Origin: Flavobacterium sp.
GTDB taxonomy: Bacteria > Bacteroidota > Bacteroidia > Flavobacteriales > Flavobacteriaceae
Length of the DNA: 64,000 nucleotides
Reading direction: 5' to 3'
NCBI GenBank assembly: GCA_031425295.1
Contig: JANPJB010000007.1
Coordinates: 1,459 to 65,458, forward strand
Under the pieces are notes generated by a model, which did no database searches, was not told the origin of the DNA, and saw nothing but the letters and a program-made list of their open reading frames with translations. The position numbers and the translations under genes are program-made. This document shows, in pieces, positions 6,297-15,021 of this stretch; the first letter of the stretch is position 1; the number at the start of each line of letters is the position of its first letter.

Positions 6297-9182
6297 GTGA
6301 AAAAACTCCTGTTCTATTTTTGCTTCCTTTCCTGCCATCTTCTCGTGGCGCAAGATCCGTTTTGCATCAATTATACGACCACTGATGGCTTGCCTTCCGC
6401 AAATATTTACTCGATATATCAAGATGAAAAAGGTTTCTTATGGTTTACAACCGATGCCGGAATCGCCAAATATGACAGTCATTCTTTTGTGCTTTTCAAT
6501 ACTGATAACGGACTCTCGGACAACGAGGTTTTTCAGATGAAAAGAGATCATAAAGGCCGCGTCTGGCTTTTGACTTTAAATGGAAAAACAGCTTACATTT
6601 ATCGCGATAAAATCTACAACGAAACCAATTCTGATTTAGTCAAGAAAATTTCCGGATCGAGTTTGATGAGTGATTTCTATGAAGATGCTCAAAACAATAT
6701 TTACTTTTCATACCGCGATGGTGAAATAGCGATCGTAAAGCCGAACGACCAAGTGCTTGAAAAAGGCAAAGCAAAAATCCCGCATATCGGGCTTTGGAAA
6801 AACCAAAACAAATTATCTTTTCTAACTCCTTTGGGCATTTATGATGAAAACAACTTGCCGATTCATCCGCAACTGGCTTCCAATTACAACCGAGCGTATC
6901 ACATTCGAAACGAAAATTATGTAAGTCACAACAATGAATTGTTTCGGGTGGACATCAATAATCAATTGGAAAAAATTGTTGCGATTCCGGAAAAGACCGA
7001 AATTCTTCAAATGTATATTGAAAAAAACAAAATATGGATCTGCACTCGTAATGGCTTGTATCTAAAAGAAAAGCAAGGCCTCAAACGATATTTTGAAGAT
7101 GAAATCGTATCGAATGTTACCCGCGATTTTGAAGGCGGCTATTGGATTTCCACCTTAAAAAAAGGCGCCTACTATGTGCCGTCTTTTGCCGTTTTTGTCA
7201 ACAATATGAACGCCACAACACCAACCAAACTCAATTGCATCAGCATCAATGACGAAAAGGAAATCTGGGTTGGCGGCGAATTCAACAACTACTTCATCAA
7301 ACCGCACAACCAAAATTTTGTCAAGCAAACATTCTCATCCGAAAATCAACCCGATCAGATCAAATCGATTCGCTTTTTTAATGGCGATACCTATGTCGTA
7401 GGCAAAACCAAGGTTCTAAAAATCGACAATCATCAAAAAAAATCTTCTTTTGGTTTTGGTGCCAATGACATTTTGATAGATCAAACGGACTTATTTATTG
7501 CCTACAATCTGACTTTTAAAGTGGCGCTGAAAAATCTCACAAAAGTTATTGAAGAAAAAAAAATAGGGCCACACCTGCTGCTTTCTAAAAGAGCCTCCGT
7601 ATTTGAAAAAGATTCAAAAAACAATACCTGGATTGGAACCAACAATGGCCTTTACCAATACAATCGCAAAGATTCGATTACGAATTGGAGTACAAAATCC
7701 GACTACCTGCAAACTTCCATTCAGGATTTATACTTTGACAATCTCACACAAACTTTGCTGGTAGCATCCAATTCAAAAGGAATCATTACCGTTAAAGAGG
7801 ATCAAACCATTCGTCAGATTTCAAGAAAAAATGGTCTCAACAGCATCACCTGCAATACGATTAAAAAAACTGCAAACGATTATTATTTGGTAGGTTCAAA
7901 CAACGGATTGAATTCGATTTTCTTCAAAAATAATTCCTATACCATCAAAAACCTCAATCCTATTTTAGGCTTGAAAAACAAAAAAATCAACGACATCGGC
8001 TTTCTTGACGACGTTGTTTATCTTGCTACTGATAATGGCTTGCTGTATTTCAACATCAAAAATATTGAACGCAAAAACAGCCAGCCAAAATGCCTCATCG
8101 AAAACCTTAAAAACCAAAATGGCGTTGTTCTGCAACAGCAACCTTATCAGTTTCATTATAGTAACAACGACGTCAGCATCAACTATACCGGGATTTCTTA
8201 TATCAATCAGAACAACCTGACTTATTATTACAAACTCGACGGACAAAGTGAGCACTGGTCTAAAACCAACGAATCGCAAATCAATTACAAATCGCTCGCA
8301 CCAAAGCAATATACATTCTCTGTTTATTGCATGGATGGTTATGGTGTAAAAAGCAATACGGCTGTAATTTCATTCGAAATCCTCGCGCCCTTCTGGCAGA
8401 AAACCTGGTTTATACTTTTGAGTATCGTATTGATCTCATTGCTGATTTACGCATTCATTCAATACCGACTCAAACAGCAGCAAAAACTATTTGAGATTGA
8501 AAAAACTTCCATCCAGTTCGAGCGTGACAAAGCGAATCTAGACAAACAGATGACTGATCTCGAACAAAAAGCGTTGCGTCAGCAAATGAATCCGCATTTT
8601 ATTTTTAATGCGCTCAATACGATTAAGGGCTATTATTCTGAAGGCGATGCGGTCAATGCGAGTACTTATATTTCGAGATTTTCAAAACTGTTGCGGATGC
8701 TTCTGGAAAATGCCGACCAATCGATCTCGCTCGCCAATGAAATCGAAATGCTACGATTGTATATTGAACTCACCAAAATCCGTTATAAAAATAAGTTCGA
8801 ATACGCACTGTTTGTCGCCGAGGAATTGAATGTGAATGACCTTTTGATTCCGACTTTGCTGCTGCAGCCGATTGTTGAGAATGCGATTATTCACGGACTT
8901 GCACCTAAAAGTGAAAAGGGCTTGTTGAAAATTTCATTCCTAAGAAAAGTAAACCAACTCGAATGTCATGTAGAAGACAATGGTATTGGTAGAGAAGCTT
9001 CCAAGAAAAAACAAAAACATAAAGAATACGAATCGAAAGCGCTTGAAATCACCACGGAAAGAATCGCGCTTTTCAGTAAAGGCATCGGACCATCAACGTT
9101 TGAAATCATCGATTTAATGTCAGATGGAAAAGCCTCAGGAACCAAAGTCATAGTAACCATCCCACTAATATCAATCTGGTAA
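6297..9182 (+). CDS. LytS-type sensor histidine kinase with periplasmic beta-propeller and Y_Y_Y domain
   Basis: Propeller repeats (GLPSAN, GLSDN), L..K.YTF.V module, TM helix, QMNPHFIFNALN H-box, LLQPIVENAIIHG, EDNGIG. Confidence 0.92.
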   Translation: MKKLLFYFCFLSCHLLVAQDPFCINYTTTDGLPSANIYSIYQDEKGFLWFTTDAGIAKYDSHSFVLFNTDNGLSDNEVFQMKRDHKGRVWLLTLNGKTAYIYRDKIYNETNSDLVKKISGSSLMSDFYEDAQNNIYFSYRDGEIAIVKPNDQVLEKGKAKIPHIGLWKNQNKLSFLTPLGIYDENNLPIHPQLASNYNRAYHIRNENYVSHNNELFRVDINNQLEKIVAIPEKTEILQMYIEKNKIWICTRNGLYLKEKQGLKRYFEDEIVSNVTRDFEGGYWISTLKKGAYYVPSFAVFVNNMNATTPTKLNCISINDEKEIWVGGEFNNYFIKPHNQNFVKQTFSSENQPDQIKSIRFFNGDTYVVGKTKVLKIDNHQKKSSFGFGANDILIDQTDLFIAYNLTFKVALKNLTKVIEEKKIGPHLLLSKRASVFEKDSKNNTWIGTNNGLYQYNRKDSITNWSTKSDYLQTSIQDLYFDNLTQTLLVASNSKGIITVKEDQTIRQISRKNGLNSITCNTIKKTANDYYLVGSNNGLNSIFFKNNSYTIKNLNPILGLKNKKINDIGFLDDVVYLATDNGLLYFNIKNIERKNSQPKCLIENLKNQNGVVLQQQPYQFHYSNNDVSINYTGISYINQNNLTYYYKLDGQSEHWSKTNESQINYKSLAPKQYTFSVYCMDGYGVKSNTAVISFEILAPFWQKTWFILLSIVLISLLIYAFIQYRLKQQQKLFEIEKTSIQFERDKANLDKQMTDLEQKALRQQMNPHFIFNALNTIKGYYSEGDAVNASTYISRFSKLLRMLLENADQSISLANEIEMLRLYIELTKIRYKNKFEYALFVAEELNVNDLLIPTLLLQPIVENAIIHGLAPKSEKGLLKISFLRKVNQLECHVEDNGIGREASKKKQKHKEYESKALEITTERIALFSKGIGPSTFEIIDLMSDGKASGTKVIVTIPLISIW

Positions 9183-9928
9183 TGAAAGTTTTAATTATAG
9201 AAGATGAAGACCAATCGATTTCTGCTTTAAAGTCGGAAATCGCCATGCACTGCAAACATCTTCAAATATCAGGAGTCGCTAAATCCGTAAAAGAAGGCAT
9301 TGAAAAAGTCAAATCGTTGCAACCTGAACTTGTTTTTTTAGACATCCAATTGTCGGATGGATTGGGATTTGAAGTCCTATCTTATTTTAAGGACGCGCTG
9401 TTCTTTCACGTTATTTTCACGACCGCTTACAGTCAATACGCCATTAAAGCGATTAAATTCAGTGCACTCGATTATTTGCTCAAACCCATTGATTCTGAAG
9501 AATTGGTTTTGGCGGTCAACAAAGCGATTAAAAATTCTGATAAAGAATCGGCTGCCAAAATCGAGAATTTATTGCACAACCAGAATGTGTCGCAAATCAG
9601 AAAAAGAATCGTGCTGCAAACTTCGGAAGGGTTATCCGTTTTTGAAATCGACACCATTTTAAAATGCTCGTCGGAAAGCAATTATACTTGTCTTTATCTG
9701 ACAACCGGCAAAAAAGTATTGTTCTCGAAAACGCTCAAGGAATTTGAAGAATTACTTTGCAGTAGTGGGTTTGAGCGCATTCACAATTCGCACATTATTA
9801 ACCTGAATCATCTGATCAGTTTCGTGAATAAAGACGGCGGTTATGTGATTTTATCAGATAAAAGCACGTTGCCTGTATCACAAAGAAAGAAAGCGAATTT
9901 GATTGCCGCTTTGGGGAATTTGAGTTAA
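9182..9928 (+). CDS. LytTR-family response regulator
   Basis: Receiver (LIIEDE, FLDIQL, FTTAY, YLLKP) plus LytTR domain (SNYT, FERIHNSHIINL, LPVSQRKK); overlaps the kinase stop. Confidence 0.95.
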   Translation: MKVLIIEDEDQSISALKSEIAMHCKHLQISGVAKSVKEGIEKVKSLQPELVFLDIQLSDGLGFEVLSYFKDALFFHVIFTTAYSQYAIKAIKFSALDYLLKPIDSEELVLAVNKAIKNSDKESAAKIENLLHNQNVSQIRKRIVLQTSEGLSVFEIDTILKCSSESNYTCLYLTTGKKVLFSKTLKEFEELLCSSGFERIHNSHIINLNHLISFVNKDGGYVILSDKSTLPVSQRKKANLIAALGNLS

Positions 9929-9929
9929 A

Positions 9930-10571
9930 TCATTTACTGAAATATTTCCTCCAAAACTGAAAACCTTGGAAAATTCCAAGTCCGACAAAAATCGCCGGAA
10001 TGATATACAGCATAACATACTTGGTCAAAAATTCGGTTTGTGCAGTAAGCTGCGCCAGTGACAAAATCAAAACCATCATGCCCGCGAAAGTCCCCAAAAG
10101 TGTGCCCACGAGATACGTGAATTGCTGCCCGTTTTTGATGTCAATGTAGCGGCCGTTGAGCATATACAGATTCCAGCCTGTCCAAAATGGCAGTTGTATG
10201 AAATTGAAAGCGCTCAACAAAATACCAATCACAAATGGGGAATATTTCAAATATTTTTCGAGTAACTGCTGCTGTGTCTGCGGATGTTGCGCACTGCTGT
10301 AAAACATGAACGCTAAAACAAACATGAAGATTACGGTGAATGCTTCAATGTATTTTAGGAGCCTTTTTTGACGCATCAATTGTTCGGCGAAAACCAAGGT
10401 ACCGTAAATCACAAGCCCTTCAATCGCAATCACGCCGAGTAAAAACGGAATCAAGCTTTCTAAACCCGCATATCGGTACAACTCAAAACCGATCACATTC
10501 AGATAACCCAATGGAATTGATCCGAGAAAACTCACCAAAAATCCAAACGCTATGTTCTTAAAGGTTTTCAT
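9930..10571 (-). CDS. LysE/RhtB-like membrane exporter
   Basis: Likely start MKTFKNIAFG at 10571; GSIPLGYLN resembles the LysE N-terminal motif; several hydrophobic helices; 1 bp from the upstream gene. Confidence 0.6.
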   Translation of the reverse strand: MKTFKNIAFGFLVSFLGSIPLGYLNVIGFELYRYAGLESLIPFLLGVIAIEGLVIYGTLVFAEQLMRQKRLLKYIEAFTVIFMFVLAFMFYSSAQHPQTQQQLLEKYLKYSPFVIGILLSAFNFIQLPFWTGWNLYMLNGRYIDIKNGQQFTYLVGTLLGTFAGMMVLILSLAQLTAQTEFLTKYVMLYIIPAIFVGLGIFQGFQFWRKYFSK

Positions 10572-10572
10572 G

Positions 10573-11607
10573 TCAGAAATCGAGGATTTTTTTGCTCTGC
10601 GCCAAATGCATACGATATTCTGCCATACCGACTTTATGCGACAAGTAAGGCACACCGTTCTTATGATTCGCGGCACTGATTTCGAACATATATCGGATGT
10701 GTCTGATAAGTTCTTTCCAAGCGAAAAAGATCGAATGTTTCGGATCGTAAATGTGGGTGGGTTCACTCGCGGCGCCGTTGAGCTCAACAACTGCGAAGTT
10801 TTTTCCTTGCTCGAGTTCTTCCAAAGTGTTGTACATTAAGTCGAGCCTGCCAAAATAAAAACCTGGAATTTGCAAGCACATTTCGTTGATGACTTCATTG
10901 AGTTTGGGCGAAATCCAATCGCTATTGTCTAGGAATTTGGCACCGCGGATATGATTCCCATAAGGCACCAAATTGCGCTGCTCGCCCTTTTGCAAAACCG
11001 TCTGCAGTTCGGTTCCATATTCTTTTTGAAGCACGGCAAGCTGCATTTCATGACGCGGGTCTTTTTTGATTAAGGTTTCGATCGTCGCCTGTCCGTCGCC
11101 GGTCACGATCAAGAATTCTTTGGCAACGATGCCTGTAATCCTGCCTGTTTTTTCGTGAGGATAACGCACGTAGAAAACGCCGATTTCGTTTGGAAACGGA
11201 ATTAACGCCTGCACCAGAAAATCGAAATTGGCTTTTTCGCAGTAGGTTTTGAGTTGATTTTGATTCTCGATTTTCTTCACCGCTGAGCCGCGCAAACCAA
11301 TGTCAGGCTTGGCGATTAAGGGAAACTGTAGTCCGAGTTGTTGTACTTTTTCAAGCACTTCGTTCAATGGCGTGCCTGCTGCAATCAAGTCTGTATTGGG
11401 ATAATAGCGTTGCGGAATTAGGTTATAAATCTGTTTTTTCGACTCCATCATGAAGCCCCCGTTTTTGATACTCGGGTTAGACGCATTGTAGAAGAAGATC
11501 GTTCTGGCTTTGAGTGCGTAATACACCCACAAAAAATAAATTGGAATGTACACGATGTGCATCGGCCAATATTCCCAGTGGAGCAATTTATGGAGGAAGA
11601 GTTTCAA
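10573..11607 (-). CDS. ATP-grasp ligase (D-Ala-D-Ala ligase-like annotation class; CphA/GshF-like insert)
   Basis: FPLIAKPDIG, LVQALIP, GDGQATIETLI, GRLDL, VELNG ATP-grasp motifs; TTG start. Confidence 0.8.
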   Translation of the reverse strand: MKLFLHKLLHWEYWPMHIVYIPIYFLWVYYALKARTIFFYNASNPSIKNGGFMMESKKQIYNLIPQRYYPNTDLIAAGTPLNEVLEKVQQLGLQFPLIAKPDIGLRGSAVKKIENQNQLKTYCEKANFDFLVQALIPFPNEIGVFYVRYPHEKTGRITGIVAKEFLIVTGDGQATIETLIKKDPRHEMQLAVLQKEYGTELQTVLQKGEQRNLVPYGNHIRGAKFLDNSDWISPKLNEVINEMCLQIPGFYFGRLDLMYNTLEELEQGKNFAVVELNGAASEPTHIYDPKHSIFFAWKELIRHIRYMFEISAANHKNGVPYLSHKVGMAEYRMHLAQSKKILDF

Positions 11608-11616
11608 ATTGGTTGG

Positions 11617-11658
11617 GAGTTGTGGGTTGTGGGTTGTGAGTTGTGAGTTGTGAGTTGT
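11617..11658. repeat. Heptamer tandem repeat G(A/G)GTTGT x6
   Basis: gagttgt gggttgt gggttgt gagttgt gagttgt gagttgt read directly. Confidence 0.9.
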
Positions 11659-11832
11659 CGGTTATTGGTTTAAAAAGTTCAATTACAGTTTAAACACATT
11701 ACAAAACCGGGCCGCGTGAGATTTAGCTTCGCTCAGTTCGGCTATGCCTTGGGTGATATTAAGAGGAGGAAGTCCGGTGGACTTCAGGTATTTTTCTAGA
11801 TTTTATTTTATGAATTAAAGTCATCGTTAAAC

Positions 11833-11980
11833 TTGGATTGCGTGAGGGATTACTTCTCTGGCTAATATTTTAATAGGTGTTCAGTGAACTTCGTTTGCAG
11901 CATTGTCTGAGCTCTTTTTGCGCAGTGAAACGGAGCAAAAAAGCGAGTGCGAAAAGCCCGACCCTTGTGGTCACGCCCCA
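11833..11980. repeat. GC-richer structured intergenic element (MITE/REP-like candidate)
   Basis: Imperfect inverted ends TTGGATTGCGTG...CACGCCCAA; internal inverted repeats CTTTTTGC/GCAAAAAAG and GACC/GGTC; single copy in this window. Confidence 0.4.
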
Positions 11981-11983
11981 AAA

Positions 11984-12691
11984 TCAAACTTGGATAAAGG
12001 TATTATAAAAATCTTTCTGTTCGATCAGATCGTGGTGGCGAATCGTCACTTTATTTTGCGTGATGACCGTTTGCGTGATGCTGAGCGTCTGGAGCTTGTT
12101 GCCGCGGTTGATAATGAGCCCGTGTTCTTGATCCTCGGTTTCGGTATAACGGTGAAAATCGAACATTTGCTGTGGACTGACATTGGGTTGGGTTTCTAAA
12201 AAATTGGCAAACCATTGCGCACGTTGCTCTCGAATCGGTTTTGCGTATAATGGCGACGATGACCAGATGTAATTTTGCGTGGGATCGAGTGTTATTTTTT
12301 CTTTTTCGGAACCATTCCAGCGCAGTTGATATAGCTTTTGGTTTTGGTATAATATAATCGTTAACGGCTCTATATTGTCGAGATCAATGGTCTCCCAAGT
12401 GTTAATCGCCGAGTCAGCACTGAGCAAATCGAGTACGATCAAGCCACGACTTCTGCGATATGGCGGACTCCACTGGTGTTTTTCAGCGGCCCCGTTGAGC
12501 AGTACGAGCGCGTTGGCATCTTCATCAACGGCAAACCAAGTGCCGCCAGCCTTAGGATCTTTGGGAAAACAGAGGTTTTTGGTATTGACTAAATAATTTT
12601 TTGGTGGCATCGCGGGTCTGATGCTTTGCTCATCGCGGTTCGAGGTAATGATAATTTCAGCATTGGAACAGACGAAACTTACTGTGCACAT
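11984..12691 (-). CDS. NRDE/TANGO2-family protein (Ntn-hydrolase-like fold)
   Basis: N-terminal MCT, literal SNRDE motif, GGTW, LLNG, SRGLI. Confidence 0.92.
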   Translation of the reverse strand: MCTVSFVCSNAEIIITSNRDEQSIRPAMPPKNYLVNTKNLCFPKDPKAGGTWFAVDEDANALVLLNGAAEKHQWSPPYRRSRGLIVLDLLSADSAINTWETIDLDNIEPLTIILYQNQKLYQLRWNGSEKEKITLDPTQNYIWSSSPLYAKPIREQRAQWFANFLETQPNVSPQQMFDFHRYTETEDQEHGLIINRGNKLQTLSITQTVITQNKVTIRHHDLIEQKDFYNTFIQV

Positions 12692-13167
12692 TGGTTTCTA
12701 TATTCGATGGTAGAACGTGCGACGCCAAAATTGCTGTCGATATTAATGTGCGCCAGTTGCAACAGCGCTACTTTTATGAGCGCTTGATGGTGGATGCAAT
12801 GCTCGAGATTGTAAACCAATTCGCGGTAGTAATTGGTGCTGATGCTGATGGCTTCGCCTTCGATGGTTTGCTGCAGTTCGAGATTTTTATTGGCTTTGTC
12901 GAGGTTATTTAAAACTGTTGTAATCGCCTGTTGCGCGGATATGATATCGGTTTGAATTGCATAATCGCGTTTTCTGAGGTCGTAATTGATGGTAGCTGAA
13001 TCGTATTGGCTGTCGAGACACTGGAACATTTCGATGATGTGTCGTGTGTGTTCCCCGATCGTAGCGCCACTGAGTCCGAAGCAAGAAGCGGTATAATCTT
13101 CATTCGACAGTTTCGACAATAAATCGGTCAATTCGCCCAGCGCTTTGTGTATGGAAGGAAATAGCAT
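12679..13167 (-). CDS. DinB/YfiT-superfamily protein
   Basis: TIGEHTRHI and EHCIHHQA metal-binding His pattern; 162 aa; overlaps the NRDE start. Confidence 0.85.
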   Translation of the reverse strand: MLFPSIHKALGELTDLLSKLSNEDYTASCFGLSGATIGEHTRHIIEMFQCLDSQYDSATINYDLRKRDYAIQTDIISAQQAITTVLNNLDKANKNLELQQTIEGEAISISTNYYRELVYNLEHCIHHQALIKVALLQLAHINIDSNFGVARSTIEYRNQCAQ

Positions 13168-13234
13168 AATGTTGTTTTTTGACCTGATATACGGTTTCGA
13201 AAAGCGTTCAGTTTTTCAGGTATGAATTTAAGAA

Positions 13235-13624
13235 TTAAATTTTAAAACGCAGTAAATCGGGAATTTTATTTTTGTGTTGCCATATGAGTAAGGCACAACA
13301 GGTAAAAGTGATTGCTGCAAGGACGAATAAGGTCCCGCCATCGTTTTTGACTGCAATTCCTAATATAAAAACATGAGAAACAATCGCTCCGAACATGGTT
13401 CCTAGTCCGAGCAGCGCGCCTAATAATGTGGTTCTTGGTATTAAAATCAGTATTGACGCTATGAGTTCGATGACGCCCGAACCGATTCTGCCGTAAGGCT
13501 CAGCGCCCAAAGTTGTGAAAATGTAAACGCTTTCTTCAGCGCCGGTGAATTTAAAATATAAGGTTTGTACGAGGATGATGACTGCGAGGAGTTTAACCGT
13601 CCCGCTGACAATTGGATTTTTCAT
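13235..13624 (-). CDS. DoxX-like membrane protein
   Basis: Four hydrophobic helices, KFTG, GRIGSG..EL, GAI.SH motifs. Confidence 0.8.
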   Translation of the reverse strand: MKNPIVSGTVKLLAVIILVQTLYFKFTGAEESVYIFTTLGAEPYGRIGSGVIELIASILILIPRTTLLGALLGLGTMFGAIVSHVFILGIAVKNDGGTLFVLAAITFTCCALLIWQHKNKIPDLLRFKI

Positions 13625-13686
13625 TTTGGATTTTGTTTGTTGGATTTTTAGCGCTCAATTCTAAGAAAGTCAGTGATTAATGTTTA

Positions 13687-14148
13687 CTAATTGCTGATTC
13701 TCTTCCAGTTGGTATCGGCTTTCTTTTTCAGGCTGGTTTCGTCTTTGTTCCAGCTTTTGAGTGTGTTGTTGAAATAAGCGTTGTAGAATAGATACAGTTT
13801 CCCGTCGACGATTTTGAAAGTTTCCGGGTTGATCTCTACTTTCTCTGCGTTACTCCCCATGGCGTAAGCGCACCAGCCGCCATATTGCGGCTCGAAGGTC
13901 ACAGGGTTTTTAAGGAAAGCATCCTTATTGGCTGCCGTTGAAAATTGGTAGATGACACCTTCATACGATGCAACGATTTCTTTTTTGCCTTTGATGGCTT
14001 TCGATTGTTTGAAATAGGCGACCGGATCATAGCCTTGCAGCGCGGTCTTTTTTTCAAGGTTGAAATGCGCTGCTCTTTTGGAAGCTGACTGTGCGCATGC
14101 CGCAACCGATAGAAATGCTACGCATAAGATCAAGATTTGTTTTTTCAT
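13687..14148 (-). CDS. Exported YHS-domain protein (Cys form of the YHS selenoprotein-type family)
   Basis: Likely start MKKQILIL at 14148 with signal peptide (VAAC possible lipobox); ALQGYDPVAYF, PQYGGWCAYAM; the Cys codon is TGC. Confidence 0.85.
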   Translation of the reverse strand: MKKQILILCVAFLSVAACAQSASKRAAHFNLEKKTALQGYDPVAYFKQSKAIKGKKEIVASYEGVIYQFSTAANKDAFLKNPVTFEPQYGGWCAYAMGSNAEKVEINPETFKIVDGKLYLFYNAYFNNTLKSWNKDETSLKKKADTNWKRISN

Positions 14149-14178
14149 GTTACTTTTAAGTATTGCTGTTTTACGATA

Positions 14179-14223
14179 CAAAAGTAGCGCGGAACCAAAA
14201 CCAGAAATGTCGGCTGTTTTACA
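14179..14223 (-). promoter_or_regulatory. Promoter of YHS operon: -7 box and Crp/Fnr-like site
   Basis: Minus strand TACTTTTG (14186-14179) and TGTAA-aacagc-CGACA (14223-14208), a TGT-N10-ACA site centred near -41/-42. Confidence 0.6.
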
Positions 14224-14328
14224 AAACCGGTCAAATAAATAAATTGATTTACCATCCGGTTTTCGCAAAGTGTATTTTTCAAAGCAAGTAATGCAGGAAA
14301 ACTGCCTCGTTCTTGACCCTTAAATTGA

Positions 14329-15021
14329 TTACAATTTACTAATATCGGGAATCAATATTTCCTTTCTATTGTAGTGAATTAAACCTGAAGATTCAAGTTC
14401 ACTCAGCAATTGCGTCGCCGTTTGTCGCGATGTGCAGATAATTTGAGCAATATCGTTTTGGGTTAGATAATTCTCTATCGTTACTTGATTGCCGACTTTT
14501 TTCCCTTCCCGTTCGGACCAATCCTTAAGGAATTGATGCATTCTGGTTTTCGCGTCTTTAGACACCAAATTCGAATAATTATTTTTGATGCGCTTCATTT
14601 TGAGTCCAACAAACTTCGTATACGACAAAGCCAAACTGGGGTTCCGCAGCAACAAATCTTCGAAGTCCGACATTAGGAAACTACAGATCGCAACCTCATC
14701 GGTTAACGCCTTAGCGTATTCATTAGAATTGGTGTCGTTTTCGAGCGTTAATTCGCCGAATAAATCGCCTTTTTGGATGATGTCTTTAATGGTTTCGTTA
14801 CCGTTTTCATCAATCGAAACAATTTTGATATTGCCTTTCTTGAGCAAGAAAATCCGCGGCACTTCCGAGGAAGAAAAATAAATAACTTCGCCTTTTTTGG
14901 CTTTCTTAAATCCGGTAATGATGCACAGTTGCCGGATCTGTGAAAAACTCAAGACACGAAATAGCTTGTGGTCGCGCAGGTACCAATACTTCAATTCTTC
15001 AAAGGTGGACATTGAACTCAT
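14329..15021 (-). CDS. Crp/Fnr-family transcription regulator
   Basis: cNMP-binding-like domain (GDLFGE) and HTH (LTQNDIAQIICTSRQTATQLL); no N-terminal FNR Cys cluster. Confidence 0.92.
   Translation of the reverse strand: MSSMSTFEELKYWYLRDHKLFRVLSFSQIRQLCIITGFKKAKKGEVIYFSSSEVPRIFLLKKGNIKIVSIDENGNETIKDIIQKGDLFGELTLENDTNSNEYAKALTDEVAICSFLMSDFEDLLLRNPSLALSYTKFVGLKMKRIKNNYSNLVSKDAKTRMHQFLKDWSEREGKKVGNQVTIENYLTQNDIAQIICTSRQTATQLLSELESSGLIHYNRKEILIPDISKL

What the first reader, a model, noticed from the sequence alone, without database searches (positions are those of the whole stretch)
9930..15021. Candidate undescribed pathway: Crp/Fnr-YHS-DoxX-DinB-NRDE-ATP-grasp-LysE cluster
Seen: seven co-oriented genes; DinB overlaps NRDE, and the ATP-grasp gene abuts the LysE-like gene with a 1-bp gap. 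Established: ATP-grasp enzymes form amide bonds; DinB/YfiT proteins include bacillithiol and mycothiol S-transferases; NRDE/TANGO2 proteins have an Ntn-hydrolase-like fold (here MCT, exposing an N-terminal Cys); DoxX proteins are redox-associated membrane proteins; this YHS family has Sec-containing members (here Cys in GGWCAY); LysE proteins export amino-acid-like molecules. Inference: the set parallels thiol detox logic (make a peptide thiol, conjugate an electrophile, cleave the amide, export), or makes and exports an unknown amide metabolite. I know of no characterisation of this cluster.
Basis: partly seen in the sequence, partly recalled or inferred. Interest (0 to 1): 0.8.

Follow-up and report, generated by a model that had tools for sequence, protein, structure and literature searches.

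The report
Conserved ligase-amidase-exporter stress gene cassette
The seven genes form a real, unstudied gene cassette found in several bacterial phyla, which pairs an ATP-driven amide-forming enzyme with a relative of the human disease protein TANGO2 and a membrane exporter, and which probably modifies an amino-acid-containing membrane lipid under redox stress.

Summary
All seven co-oriented genes are at the stated coordinates, in a Flavobacterium genome. They form a conserved accessory cassette, not chance neighbours.

- **Within the genus:** in 76 of 76 Flavobacterium loci the DinB-fold and NRDE genes precede the ATP-grasp gene, and 75 of 77 have the LysE-like gene after it. Seven species that lack the cassette have an empty site.
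- **Across the phylum:** in 401 Bacteroidota genomes the ATP-grasp and DinB-fold genes co-occur in 69, and lie within 5 kb in 64. YHS, DoxX and Crp recur around them in shuffled order.
- **Fusions:** natural fusions exist of NRDE::ATP-grasp, LysE::ATP-grasp and VTT/DedA::ATP-grasp.
- **Other phyla:** in Rhodothermales and Acidobacteriota the ligase domain ends an alpha/beta-hydrolase::VTT::ATP-grasp protein. That gene sits in the operon of OlsB/OlsA-type aminolipid acyltransferases.

My best reading is a membrane-associated ATP-dependent amide ligase, a Cys-Ntn amidase and a translocator. They would act on an N-acyl-amino-acid lipid or a related amphiphile. They are co-expressed with envelope thiol-redox proteins, apparently under a Crp-family regulator that has a conserved 16-bp site.

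I found no publication on this module. The chemistry is unproven.

The parts
14329..15021 (-). Crp/Fnr-family transcription regulator (cNMP-binding domain plus Crp-type HTH). It has no Fnr-type N-terminal Cys cluster.
   Evidence: Pfam PF00027 3.4e-14 and PF13545 3.6e-12. It is present in 45 of 62 Flavobacterium loci with enough flank, and absent in 11 of the 12 loci that lack YHS and DoxX. It is absent, along with everything else, from the empty sites.
14208..14223 (-). Conserved 16-bp operator-like site, TGTAAAACAGCCGACA. It lies 22 nt upstream of the only Bacteroidota-type -7 box (TACTTTTG, 14179-14186) on this strand between 9930 and 15021.
   Evidence: The consensus TGTAAAcTAgCCGACA occurs 52 times in 1.39 Mb of 80 Flavobacterium loci. 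All copies are on the cassette strand, and 47 are in front of YHS or the redoxin gene, just after crp. The motif is absent from the empty sites.
13687..14148 (-). Exported YHS-domain protein of the '(seleno)protein' family. This copy has Cys (YGGWCAY), not Sec.
   Evidence: NF041384, 136.4 bits against a cut-off of 70. Hydrophobic N-terminus. All 77 homologues in the fetched loci have Cys at this position. It recurs next to the core in other families and another class: L120, L123-L126, L129.
13235..13624 (-). DoxX-like small integral membrane protein.
   Evidence: PF13564 scores 25.7 bits against a cut-off of 26.3. Several hydrophobic segments. An orthologue is named 'DoxX family membrane protein' by NCBI. 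Present in 49 of 62 loci.
12679..13167 (-). DinB/YfiT-fold protein with conserved His residues (H40, H43, H123, H126, H127). It is the tightest genomic partner of the ATP-grasp gene.
   Evidence: No Pfam or PDB sequence hit. AF2 model pLDDT 95.1. The top 16 Foldseek PDB hits are all DinB/YfiT fold, including BstA 5wk0 and YfiT 1rxq, with probability 0.94-1.0 and TM 0.52-0.65. It co-occurs with ATP-grasp in 69 genomes, within 5 kb in 64, and occurs without it in only 2.
11984..12691 (-). NRDE/TANGO2-family protein, a putative Cys-Ntn amidohydrolase (Met1-Cys2, NRDE motif). Its start overlaps the DinB-fold gene by 13 nt.
   Evidence: PF05742, 52.3 bits against 22.6. Invariant C2, N18, R19, D20, E21. 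These align to human TANGO2 N25-E28; their catalytic role follows PMC13044924. The overlap is conserved in all 76 loci that reach it. NRDE::ATP-grasp fusions are P0322, P0323, P0324 and P0347.
11608..11983 (.). Lineage-specific spacer built of dispersed short repeats and 7-nt tandem units. I found no consensus promoter or terminator on the gene strand.
   Evidence: Sequence. Fragments match 25 or more other contigs of the same genome. The median NRDE-ATP-grasp gap in relatives is 14 bp, and it exceeds 100 bp in 5 of 76.
10573..11607 (-). ATP-grasp carboxylate-amine ligase of a distinct family. It has a conserved aromatic-hydrophobic N-terminal segment (WEYWP...) and a TTG start.
   Evidence: Profile against PDB: RimK-type 8fxh 1.4e-4, cyanophycin synthetase 7e-4, GshAB 2.6e-3, with a shared GDG..T motif. 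W11, E12, W14 and P15 are invariant across families and within fusions. The family has 1129 50%-identity clusters at E<=1e-30. Fusions to LysE, VTT, NRDE and abhydrolase::VTT are.
9930..10571 (-). Divergent LysE-type translocator with about 6 TM helices. Its start is 1 bp after the ATP-grasp stop.
   Evidence: 27 of 56 orthologues hit PF01810, best 3.3e-7. hhalign to a true LysE protein of L035 gives 96% probability, E 4e-9, over 201 columns. The AF2 model has pLDDT 86.7 and is all-helical. Present in 75 of 77 loci. LysE::ATP-grasp fusions are P0320, P0342 and P0350.

Best explanation
The array is one copy of a conserved, horizontally patchy accessory cassette built in two layers.

**Core (DinB-fold protein, NRDE/TANGO2, ATP-grasp, LysE-like protein).** I read this as a membrane-associated system that forms and breaks an amide bond.
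- The ATP-grasp enzyme activates a carboxylate as an acyl phosphate and joins an amine or amino acid to it.
- The most likely substrate is the free carboxylate of an N-acyl-amino-acid lipid, or of its lyso form.
- The TANGO2-type enzyme uses its N-terminal Cys to hydrolyse, edit or transfer an amide in the same molecule.
- The LysE-like protein moves the product or a released fragment across the inner membrane. In other lineages a fused VTT/DedA domain takes this position.
- The DinB-fold metalloprotein is an obligate partner of the ligase. Its chemistry is unknown.

**Add-on layer (Crp regulator, exported YHS Cys protein, DoxX).** Relatives also carry a secreted AhpC/TSA redoxin, DM13 or NDH-2 here. 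This layer ties expression to envelope thiol or redox stress through a promoter that carries a conserved 16-bp site.

**Shown:** gene identities, linkage, fusions, the link to aminolipid operons, and the conserved site.

**Inferred:** the substrate class, the direction of transport, the role of the DinB-fold protein, the inducing signal, and membrane association of the ligase.
For: **Linkage**
- 76 of 76 Flavobacterium loci have DinB-NRDE before ATP-grasp, and 75 of 77 have the LysE-like gene after it.
- Seven Flavobacterium species without the cassette keep the flanking ACAD-AnmK-GDH block but have none of the seven genes nor the motif.
- In the phylum sample, ATP-grasp is in 86 of 401 genomes and DinB-like in 71. 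Both are present in 69, within 5 kb in 64.
- Gene order is shuffled in other families while membership is kept: L123-L129.

**Rosetta-stone fusions among the nearest cluster representatives**
- NRDE::ATP-grasp (4), LysE::ATP-grasp (3), VTT::ATP-grasp (6) and abhydrolase::VTT::ATP-grasp.

**Lipid link**
- In 12 of 12 genomes from four families outside class Bacteroidia, the best OlsB-type gene (PF13444) lies 2-5 kb from the fusion gene. In 10 of 12 it is the only such gene.
- The operon Acetyltransf_5 - Acyltransferase - DinB-like - (TANGO2) - fusion also occurs in Acidobacteriota and one other bacterium.
- The nearest solved ligases all extend a C-terminal carboxylate: cyanophycin synthetase G domain, RimK, GshAB.
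- Human TANGO2 is structurally a Cys-Ntn hydrolase. Its relatives cleave fatty-acyl amides, and fatty-acid derivatives are proposed as its substrates (PMC13044924).
- ATP-dependent head-group amidation of aminolipids is known biochemically, but the genes are unknown. Examples are taurine on ornithine lipid (PMC12971839) and the Ser ligation of Ser-Gly lipids (PMC12746155).

**Redox and regulation**
- YHS and/or DoxX lie beside the core in 8 of 16 loci outside the genus.
- A secreted AhpC/TSA gene occurs in 19 Flavobacterium loci. In F. psychrophilum the order is crp-site-redoxin-DinB-NRDE-ATP-grasp-LysE.
- An ECF sigma factor and a small H-x3-C-x2-C anti-sigma factor are adjacent in two families.
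- The 16-mer is restricted to this promoter.
Against: - No OlsB/OlsA/OlsF gene is near the cassette in this genome. The only PF13444 gene is on another contig. No OlsB- or OlsA-like gene was detected near the cassette in any of the 80 Flavobacterium loci.
- LysE-type proteins are known as exporters of small amino-acid-like solutes, not lipids. This fits a soluble product better.
- The N-terminal segment of the ligase has a mean hydropathy of only about 1.0. It does not pass a 1.6 TM threshold, so membrane anchoring is inferred from the fusions alone.
- The aminolipid-operon contexts may go back to only a few ancestral events.
- Characterised DinB-fold enzymes mostly use low-molecular-weight thiols, and BshC is present.
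- The 376-bp repeat spacer may uncouple ATP-grasp and LysE from the upstream genes in this particular genome.
- No expression, lipid or enzyme data exist.
Confidence: 0.45

Rival explanations
1. The DinB-fold protein conjugates a low-molecular-weight thiol (bacillithiol or a new peptide thiol made by the ATP-grasp) to an electrophile. NRDE cleaves the conjugate's amide, and LysE exports the Cys-S-conjugate.
For: - The top structural matches of the DinB-fold model include the bacillithiol transferase BstA and YfiT.
- The genome encodes BshC, at 458 bits.
- The neighbours are thiol-redox proteins: YHS Cys/Sec family, AhpC/TSA, DM13, DoxX, and a ZAS-type anti-sigma motif.
- LysE-type exporters handle amino-acid-like solutes.
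Against: - No Pfam DinB, DinB_2 or MST hit for the protein, whereas an ordinary DinB_2 protein in L035 scores 70.9 bits.
- This reading does not explain the fusion of the ligase to VTT/DedA and an alpha/beta-hydrolase, nor its place in OlsB/OlsA operons.
- The known conjugate amidases, Mca and Bca, belong to a different enzyme family (my own knowledge).
- A separate thiol-making ligase is unnecessary when the bacillithiol pathway exists.
Confidence: 0.2
2. The core makes and exports a soluble small amide metabolite, such as a dipeptide-like compound, a modified amino acid or a signalling molecule, that is unrelated to membrane lipids. The aminolipid-operon context in other phyla would then reflect a different substrate for a diverged enzyme.
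For: - LysE::ATP-grasp fusions and the 1-bp ATP-grasp/LysE junction suggest a make-and-export arrangement.
- ATP-grasp plus LysE pairs occur alone in L127 and L130.
- No lipid genes are adjacent in any Flavobacterium locus.
Against: - The same ligase family carries VTT/DedA in the same N-terminal position as LysE. The profile scores E 1e-83 to 1e-92 over nearly its whole length.
- The conserved aromatic-hydrophobic segment precedes the catalytic domain in every form.
- The structural relatives of TANGO2 act on fatty-acyl amides.
Confidence: 0.17
3. The ligase modifies a cell-wall precursor or an undecaprenyl-phosphate-linked intermediate. This matches the public label 'D-alanine--D-alanine ligase', and DedA-family proteins are known to recycle undecaprenyl phosphate.
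For: - The public annotation of orthologues is D-alanine--D-alanine ligase.
- The VTT/DedA fusion partner.
- ATP-grasp enzymes that add amino acids to peptidoglycan precursors exist (my own knowledge).
Against: - No match to the Ddl Pfam or NCBIfam families. The nearest solved relatives are RimK, cyanophycin synthetase and GshAB types.
- No murein or polysaccharide genes recur nearby.
- The cassette is dispensable: 7 of 16 sampled Flavobacterium species lack it.
Confidence: 0.06
4. The genes are neighbours by descent only and have no joint function.
For: Within Flavobacterium the array always sits at the same chromosomal site, so conservation there could in principle be inherited synteny.
Against: - Membership is kept while gene order is shuffled across families and classes.
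- Domain fusions exist.
- Presence is all-or-none at the site.
- The start and stop codons overlap or abut.
Confidence: 0.03

Closest known systems
OlsB/OlsA (and OlsF, GlsB/GlsA) acyloxyacyl-aminolipid pathways and their tailoring enzymes
   Same: In Rhodothermales, Acidobacteriota and related lineages, the orthologous ligase domain, the DinB-like gene and sometimes the TANGO2 gene lie in one operon with an OlsB-type N-acyltransferase and an OlsA-type O-acyltransferase. ATP-dependent head-group amidation of such lipids is known, but the genes are not.
   Different: The window has no acyltransferase gene in or near the cassette. The genome's only PF13444 gene is on another contig. No known aminolipid modifier is an ATP-grasp, TANGO2 or DinB-fold protein.
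MprF (aminoacyl-phosphatidylglycerol synthase fused to a flippase)
   Same: The architecture matches: an N-terminal multi-TM translocator domain (VTT or LysE) is joined to a C-terminal cytoplasmic head-group-modifying enzyme. The system is also stress-related and accessory (the MprF architecture is from my own knowledge).
   Different: The chemistry differs (ATP-grasp acyl phosphate against aminoacyl-tRNA transfer), as do the domain families. In the window the translocator is a separate gene downstream.
Glutathionylspermidine synthetase/amidase (E. coli Gss)
   Same: It pairs an ATP-dependent amide ligase with a Cys-nucleophile amidase that reverses it. In Gss they are one protein, and NRDE::ATP-grasp fusions exist here. 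In Gss, oxidation of the amidase Cys shifts the balance toward the ligated product under oxidative stress (my own knowledge). This would fit the redox context here.
   Different: The amidase fold differs (CHAP against Ntn). Gss has no membrane partner and no DinB-fold partner. Nothing here shows spermidine or glutathione substrates.
Bacillithiol/mycothiol S-transferase - conjugate amidase - export (mercapturate-type) detoxification
   Same: It also combines a DinB-fold protein, an amidase and an exporter. BshC is present in the genome.
   Different: The DinB-like protein matches no DinB_2 or MST sequence family. The amidase family is different. An ATP-grasp ligase has no role in the known pathway.
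Human TANGO2 and bacterial HtpA (Shewanella TANGO2 homologue)
   Same: It belongs to the same Pfam family, with Met-Cys start and NRDE motif conserved. The 2026 crystal structure supports a Cys-Ntn hydrolase acting on fatty-acid derivatives.
   Different: No substrate is known for any member. HtpA was proposed as a haem-trafficking protein (PMC10470608). That role does not explain the ligase, translocator and aminolipid context seen here.

Membership tests
Crp/Fnr transcription regulators | N-terminal cNMP-binding-type effector domain plus C-terminal Crp-type HTH | tested here: met
   PF00027 3.4e-14 and PF13545 3.6e-12.
Fnr subgroup (oxygen-sensing) | N-terminal cluster of Cys residues that ligate a [4Fe-4S] centre | tested here: not met
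   The sequence has only three scattered Cys (C33, C113, C196) and no N-terminal cluster. All NCBIfam equivalog scores are far below their cut-offs.
YHS domain-containing (seleno)protein, NF041384 | Match above the family cut-off, with a Cys or Sec in the GGW(C/U)AY motif | tested here: met
   136.4 bits against 70. The motif is YGGWCAY with Cys. There was no Sec codon in any fetched homologue.
DoxX family | Pfam DoxX or DoxX_2 match, and a small multi-TM protein | tested here: inconclusive
   DoxX_2 scores 25.7 bits, just below the 26.3 cut-off. Several hydrophobic segments. An orthologue is named DoxX family by NCBI.
DinB/YfiT-like fold | Four-helix-bundle DinB fold | tested here: met
   AF2 pLDDT 95.1. 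The top 16 Foldseek PDB hits are all DinB/YfiT structures, with probability 0.94-1.0 and TM 0.52-0.65.
DinB/YfiT-like fold | Membership of a DinB sequence family (PF05163, PF12867, PF04978) | tested here: not met
   No Pfam hit at E<=0.01 and no PDB sequence hit. A weak DinB_2 hit is on record only for the distant L135 homologue.
DinB/YfiT-like fold | Metal-binding His triad | tested here: inconclusive
   H40, H43, H123, H126 and H127 are invariant or nearly so. I did not measure the geometry in the model.
TANGO2/NRDE (PF05742), Cys-Ntn hydrolase-like | Family match, Cys directly after the initiator Met, and the N-R-D-E motif | tested here: met
   52.3 bits against 22.6. C2 and N18-E21 are invariant in 9 diverse homologues. 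The motif aligns to human TANGO2 N25-E28.
TANGO2/NRDE (PF05742), Cys-Ntn hydrolase-like | Hydrolase activity and substrate | not testable with these tools
   No substrate is known for any family member.
ATP-grasp carboxylate-amine ligases | ATP-grasp fold and motifs | tested here: met
   The window protein is sub-threshold (RimK 16.5 bits against 21). The family profile hits RimK-type, cyanophycin synthetase and GshAB chains over positions 91-280. Fusion orthologues pass the RimK cut-off, at 28.5 bits.
D-alanine--D-alanine ligase (the public label of orthologues) | Match to Ddl families | tested here: not met
   No Ddl family appears among the Pfam or NCBIfam hits or the PDB hits.
LysE-type translocators (PF01810) | Family match and about 6 TM helices | tested here: met
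   The window copy has no hit. 27 of 56 orthologues do, best 3.3e-7. The profile aligns to a true LysE protein (47.9 bits against 25.6) at 96% probability over 201 columns.
OlsBA-type aminolipid operon | Adjacent N-acyltransferase (PF13444) and O-acyltransferase (PF01553) | tested here: not met
   Neither gene is in the window cassette. The genome's only PF13444 gene is on contig C36. The feature is met only by the homologous modules in other classes and phyla.
Mercapturate-type low-molecular-weight-thiol detoxification | The thiol is made by the cell, and the S-transferase and amidase belong to the known families | tested here: inconclusive
   BshC is present. The DinB fold is present, but no transferase sequence family matches. 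The amidase family differs from the known ones. Activities could not be tested.

The most novel reading that the evidence does not exclude
The ATP-grasp protein would be the founding member of the missing class of ATP-dependent head-group ligases for N-acyl-amino-acid lipids. This is the kind of enzyme still unidentified for the Ser ligation of Ser-Gly lipids and for taurine addition to ornithine lipid. It would work with a dedicated translocator.

The bacterial TANGO2-type protein would be the matching aminolipid amidase or transacylase. Its catalytic Cys2 would make the cycle redox-sensitive, as in Gss. This would give the TANGO2 family, including the human disease protein, its first substrate class.

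A bolder variant is that the added residue is cysteine. That would create a membrane-anchored thiol serviced by the DinB-fold protein and by the YHS, DoxX and redoxin set.
Probability: 0.2. Interest if true: 0.9.

Novelty: categorically new. Interest (0 to 1): 0.72.

Why it matters
**TANGO2.** Loss of human TANGO2 causes a severe metabolic crisis disorder, and its biochemical function is still disputed (haem, acyl-CoA or lipid). Here its bacterial relatives are locked to an ATP-dependent amide ligase, a membrane translocator and, in several phyla, the genes for amino-acid lipids. The locking is by operon structure, overlapping codons and outright gene fusion. That turns the question of what TANGO2 enzymes act on into an experiment that can be done in tractable bacteria.

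**Bacterial lipids.** The same module offers candidate genes for long-known but unassigned ATP-dependent head-group modifications of aminolipids.

**Stress biology.** The module adds a defined regulator-operator pair and a set of envelope thiol-redox proteins (YHS, DoxX, DM13, secreted peroxiredoxin). This gives a poorly understood stress response in Bacteroidota a concrete handle.

**Caveat.** The parts belong to known protein families. What is new is the system, and its chemistry is not yet shown.

Tried and rejected
1. Sequence searches of the DinB-like profile against Pfam and PDB found nothing. Only the fold search settled the fold.
2. The Foldseek search of the LysE-like model against PDB gave no meaningful match. 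Membership rests on orthologue Pfam hits and on hhalign.
3. The search for related loci on genome contigs returned only Flavobacterium loci. Diversity had to come from the genome search and from the fusion-protein search.
4. I tried PF06321 (FimA) as a marker to tell whether Bacteroidales, which make Ser-Gly lipids, carry the ligase. Only 1 of 401 genomes matched, so the marker was useless and the question stays open.
6. The NRDE profile against PDB gives human TANGO2 only as a weak best hit, E 0.54.
7. I rejected the 'D-alanine--D-alanine ligase' label, an Fnr-type oxygen sensor and a Sec-containing YHS protein.
8. I looked for an internal promoter or terminator in the 376-bp spacer. No consensus match lies on the gene strand, but these scans are weak evidence.
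9. The conserved ACAD neighbour is synteny, not membership. It stays in place where the cassette is missing.
10. I considered that the NRDE::ATP-grasp fusions could be read-through artefacts of adjacent genes. Four separate 50%-identity clusters show them. The LysE::ATP-grasp fusions have the opposite order to the operon, so they cannot arise that way.

Full report
**The observation.** The window lies in a Flavobacterium genome; relatives carry Flavobacterium names. Seven minus-strand ORFs sit at the stated coordinates.
- Crp-family regulator, 14329-15021: cNMP_binding plus HTH_Crp_2.
- YHS protein, 13687-14148: NF041384, 136 bits against a cut-off of 70. It has a Cys in YGGWCAY.
- DoxX-like membrane protein, 13235-13624: just under the Pfam cut-off.
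- A 162-aa protein, 12679-13167.
- NRDE/TANGO2 protein, 11984-12691: PF05742, 52 bits.
- ATP-grasp protein, 10573-11607.
- A 213-aa membrane protein, 9930-10571.

The 162-aa gene and NRDE overlap by 13 nt. The last two genes are 1 bp apart.

It consists of short repeats that also occur on 25 or more other contigs of this genome. In relatives the median gap is 14 bp.

**Checking the two doubtful names.**
- The 'DinB' protein has no Pfam or PDB sequence match. An AlphaFold model built on 59 orthologues has pLDDT 95. Its top 16 PDB matches are all DinB/YfiT-fold proteins, including the bacillithiol transferase BstA and YfiT. So the fold is met, but membership of a DinB sequence family is not.
- The 'LysE' protein of the window hits nothing. 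However, 27 of 56 orthologues match PF01810. The family profile aligns over its full length to a true LysE protein from a related locus, at 96% probability.
- The ATP-grasp is nearest to RimK-type, cyanophycin-synthetase and GshAB ligases, and shares their GDG..T motif. It is not a Ddl, despite that public label.
- Its conserved N-terminal WEYWP segment supports the TTG start at 11607. Several public gene calls truncate it, including the 292-aa call on a 70,926-bp contig, the length of the window's own contig C7.

**Is the clustering more than chance?** Yes, by four independent lines of evidence.
1. *Conservation in the genus.* In 80 Flavobacterium loci, 76 of 76 with enough flank have DinB-NRDE before the ligase, and 75 of 77 have the LysE-like gene after it. 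DoxX, YHS and Crp are present in 49, 47 and 45 of 62.
2. *All-or-none presence.* Seven Flavobacterium species that lack the ligase keep the flanking ACAD-AnmK-GDH block. They have none of the seven genes there.
3. *Phylum-wide co-occurrence.* Among 401 Bacteroidota genomes the ligase occurs in 86 and the DinB-like gene in 71. Both occur in 69, within 5 kb in 64, and the DinB-like gene occurs without the ligase in only 2. NRDE joins them in 26. In other families the same set recurs in different orders, for example YHS-DoxX-ligase-Crp...DinB-NRDE and YHS-YHS-ligase-DoxX-DinB-NRDE.
4. *Fusions.* Among the nearest 50%-identity cluster representatives there are natural fusions: NRDE::ATP-grasp (4 clusters), LysE::ATP-grasp (3), VTT/DedA::ATP-grasp (6) and alpha/beta-hydrolase::VTT::ATP-grasp.

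The co-occurrence statistics are not corrected for phylogeny.

**Two layers.** The core is DinB-NRDE-ligase-LysE. Crp, YHS and DoxX travel together as an add-on. Of the 12 Flavobacterium loci that lack YHS and DoxX, 11 also lack Crp.

Between crp and YHS many relatives carry further genes.
- A secreted AhpC/TSA redoxin occurs in 19 loci. A DM13 protein and a 318-aa protein with no Pfam match also occur there.
- Other families add NDH-2 next to the DinB-like gene. They replace Crp with an ECF sigma factor and a small anti-sigma protein carrying an H-x3-C-x2-C motif.
- In F. psychrophilum the order is crp, redoxin, DinB, NRDE, ligase, LysE, with 3-bp spacing between the redoxin and DinB genes.

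**Regulation.**
- A 16-mer, TGTAAAcTAgCCGACA, occurs 52 times in 1.39 Mb of these loci. It is always on the cassette strand, and 47 copies lie just downstream of crp, in front of the first operon gene.
- In the window it is at 14208-14223. It lies 22 nt upstream of the only TAnnTTTG -7 box on this strand in the cassette.
- This fits a dedicated operator for the adjacent regulator. Binding has not been shown.

**What the substrate may be.**
- In four families outside class Bacteroidia, one of them Rhodothermales by the record name, the ligase domain is the C-terminus of an 820-950-aa protein. That protein carries an alpha/beta-hydrolase domain (Pfam-detected in three of the four examined) and a VTT/DedA domain.
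- The operon there reads PF13444 GNAT (OlsB-type), PF01553 acyltransferase (OlsA-type), DinB-like, sometimes TANGO2, then the fusion, sometimes followed by YHS-DoxX.
- In 12 of 12 such genomes the best PF13444 gene lies 2-5 kb from the fusion. In 10 of 12 it is the genome's only one.
- The same operon occurs on contigs labelled Acidobacteria and Thermoanaerobaculia, and on one from an unclassified bacterium.
- All the nearest characterised ligases extend a C-terminal carboxylate. An N-acyl amino acid presents exactly such a group.
- The 2026 crystal structure of human TANGO2 shows a Cys-Ntn hydrolase whose structural relatives cleave fatty-acyl amides. The authors propose fatty-acid derivatives as its substrates.
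- Reviews and a 2025 study state that ATP-dependent taurine transfer to ornithine lipid, and the Ser ligation step of Ser-Gly lipids, still lack genes.

Together these make a membrane N-acyl-amino-acid lipid, or its lyso form, the most likely substrate class. The architecture works like MprF (translocator plus head-group enzyme). The ligase-amidase pairing works like Gss.

**Limits.**
- In Flavobacterium no aminolipid gene is adjacent to the cassette. The genome's one PF13444 gene, in a 630-aa OlsF-like ORF, is on another contig.
- LysE proteins usually move small solutes.
- The N-terminal segment of the ligase is only moderately hydrophobic.
- The genome encodes BshC, and most characterised DinB-fold enzymes use thiols.
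- I could not test whether Bacteroidales carry the ligase, because the marker I tried failed.
- Earlier notes of this scan had proposed the aminolipid link. I treated them as leads and re-derived the link from my own loci, Pfam scans and contig look-ups.

**Verdict.** The cassette is a local copy of a widespread, unpublished module. TANGO2 plus ATP-grasp returned 0 papers, and 'NRDE family protein' returned 0. Its parts belong to known families, but the system matches no described pathway.

My estimates:
- That this is a real functional module: above 0.9.
- That the lipid-directed mechanism is correct: about 0.45.

Noticed in passing
window 11608-11983: The NRDE/ATP-grasp spacer is a patchwork of short dispersed repeats plus 7-nt tandem units (ACAACTC/ACAACCC). 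Fragments recur on 25 or more other contigs of this genome. The closest relatives (L039-L041, L043) also have enlarged gaps of 164-300 bp.
   Followed up: partly
window 10573-11607: A 292-aa gene call on a 70,926-bp contig, apparently the window's own (P0003), and many public calls (329 or 291 aa) start the ATP-grasp gene too late. This cuts off the WEYWP/hydrophobic segment, which is invariant across families. The common public name 'D-alanine--D-alanine ligase' is not supported by any family match.
   Followed up: yes
window 6297-9928 (+): A histidine kinase plus LytTR response-regulator pair converges on the end of the cassette. The same pair lies downstream of the LysE-like gene in at least 7 other Flavobacterium loci (L040, L041, L046, L069, L083, L109, L115). 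It may be a conserved neighbour.
   Followed up: no
L036:6942-7804 and L124 (downstream of NRDE): An ECF sigma factor and an 88-aa protein with an H-x3-C-x2-C (ZAS-type) motif replace the Crp regulator beside the module in other families. This hints at a thiol-disulfide switch.
   Followed up: partly
P0405 (representative library): One relative of the ligase carries a C-terminal YqcI/YcgG domain (PF08892, 3.8e-52). This fusion partner is not seen in the other architectures.
   Followed up: no
L035, L037, L032: A type-II NADH dehydrogenase gene (Pyr_redox_2 plus NDH2_C) lies directly upstream of the DinB-like gene in L035 and L037, which belong to two different families. It lies a few kb away in L032.
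   Followed up: partly
L040:6069-7025 and 10 other Flavobacterium loci: A 318-aa protein with no Pfam match recurs between crp and YHS. It has a signal-peptide-like N-terminus and may be an outer-membrane beta-barrel, judged by eye. It occurs together with a DM13-like lipoprotein.
   Followed up: no
G000 contig C3:33369-34901: The genome encodes a BshC homologue well above the family cut-off, so bacillithiol is probably its low-molecular-weight thiol.
   Followed up: partly
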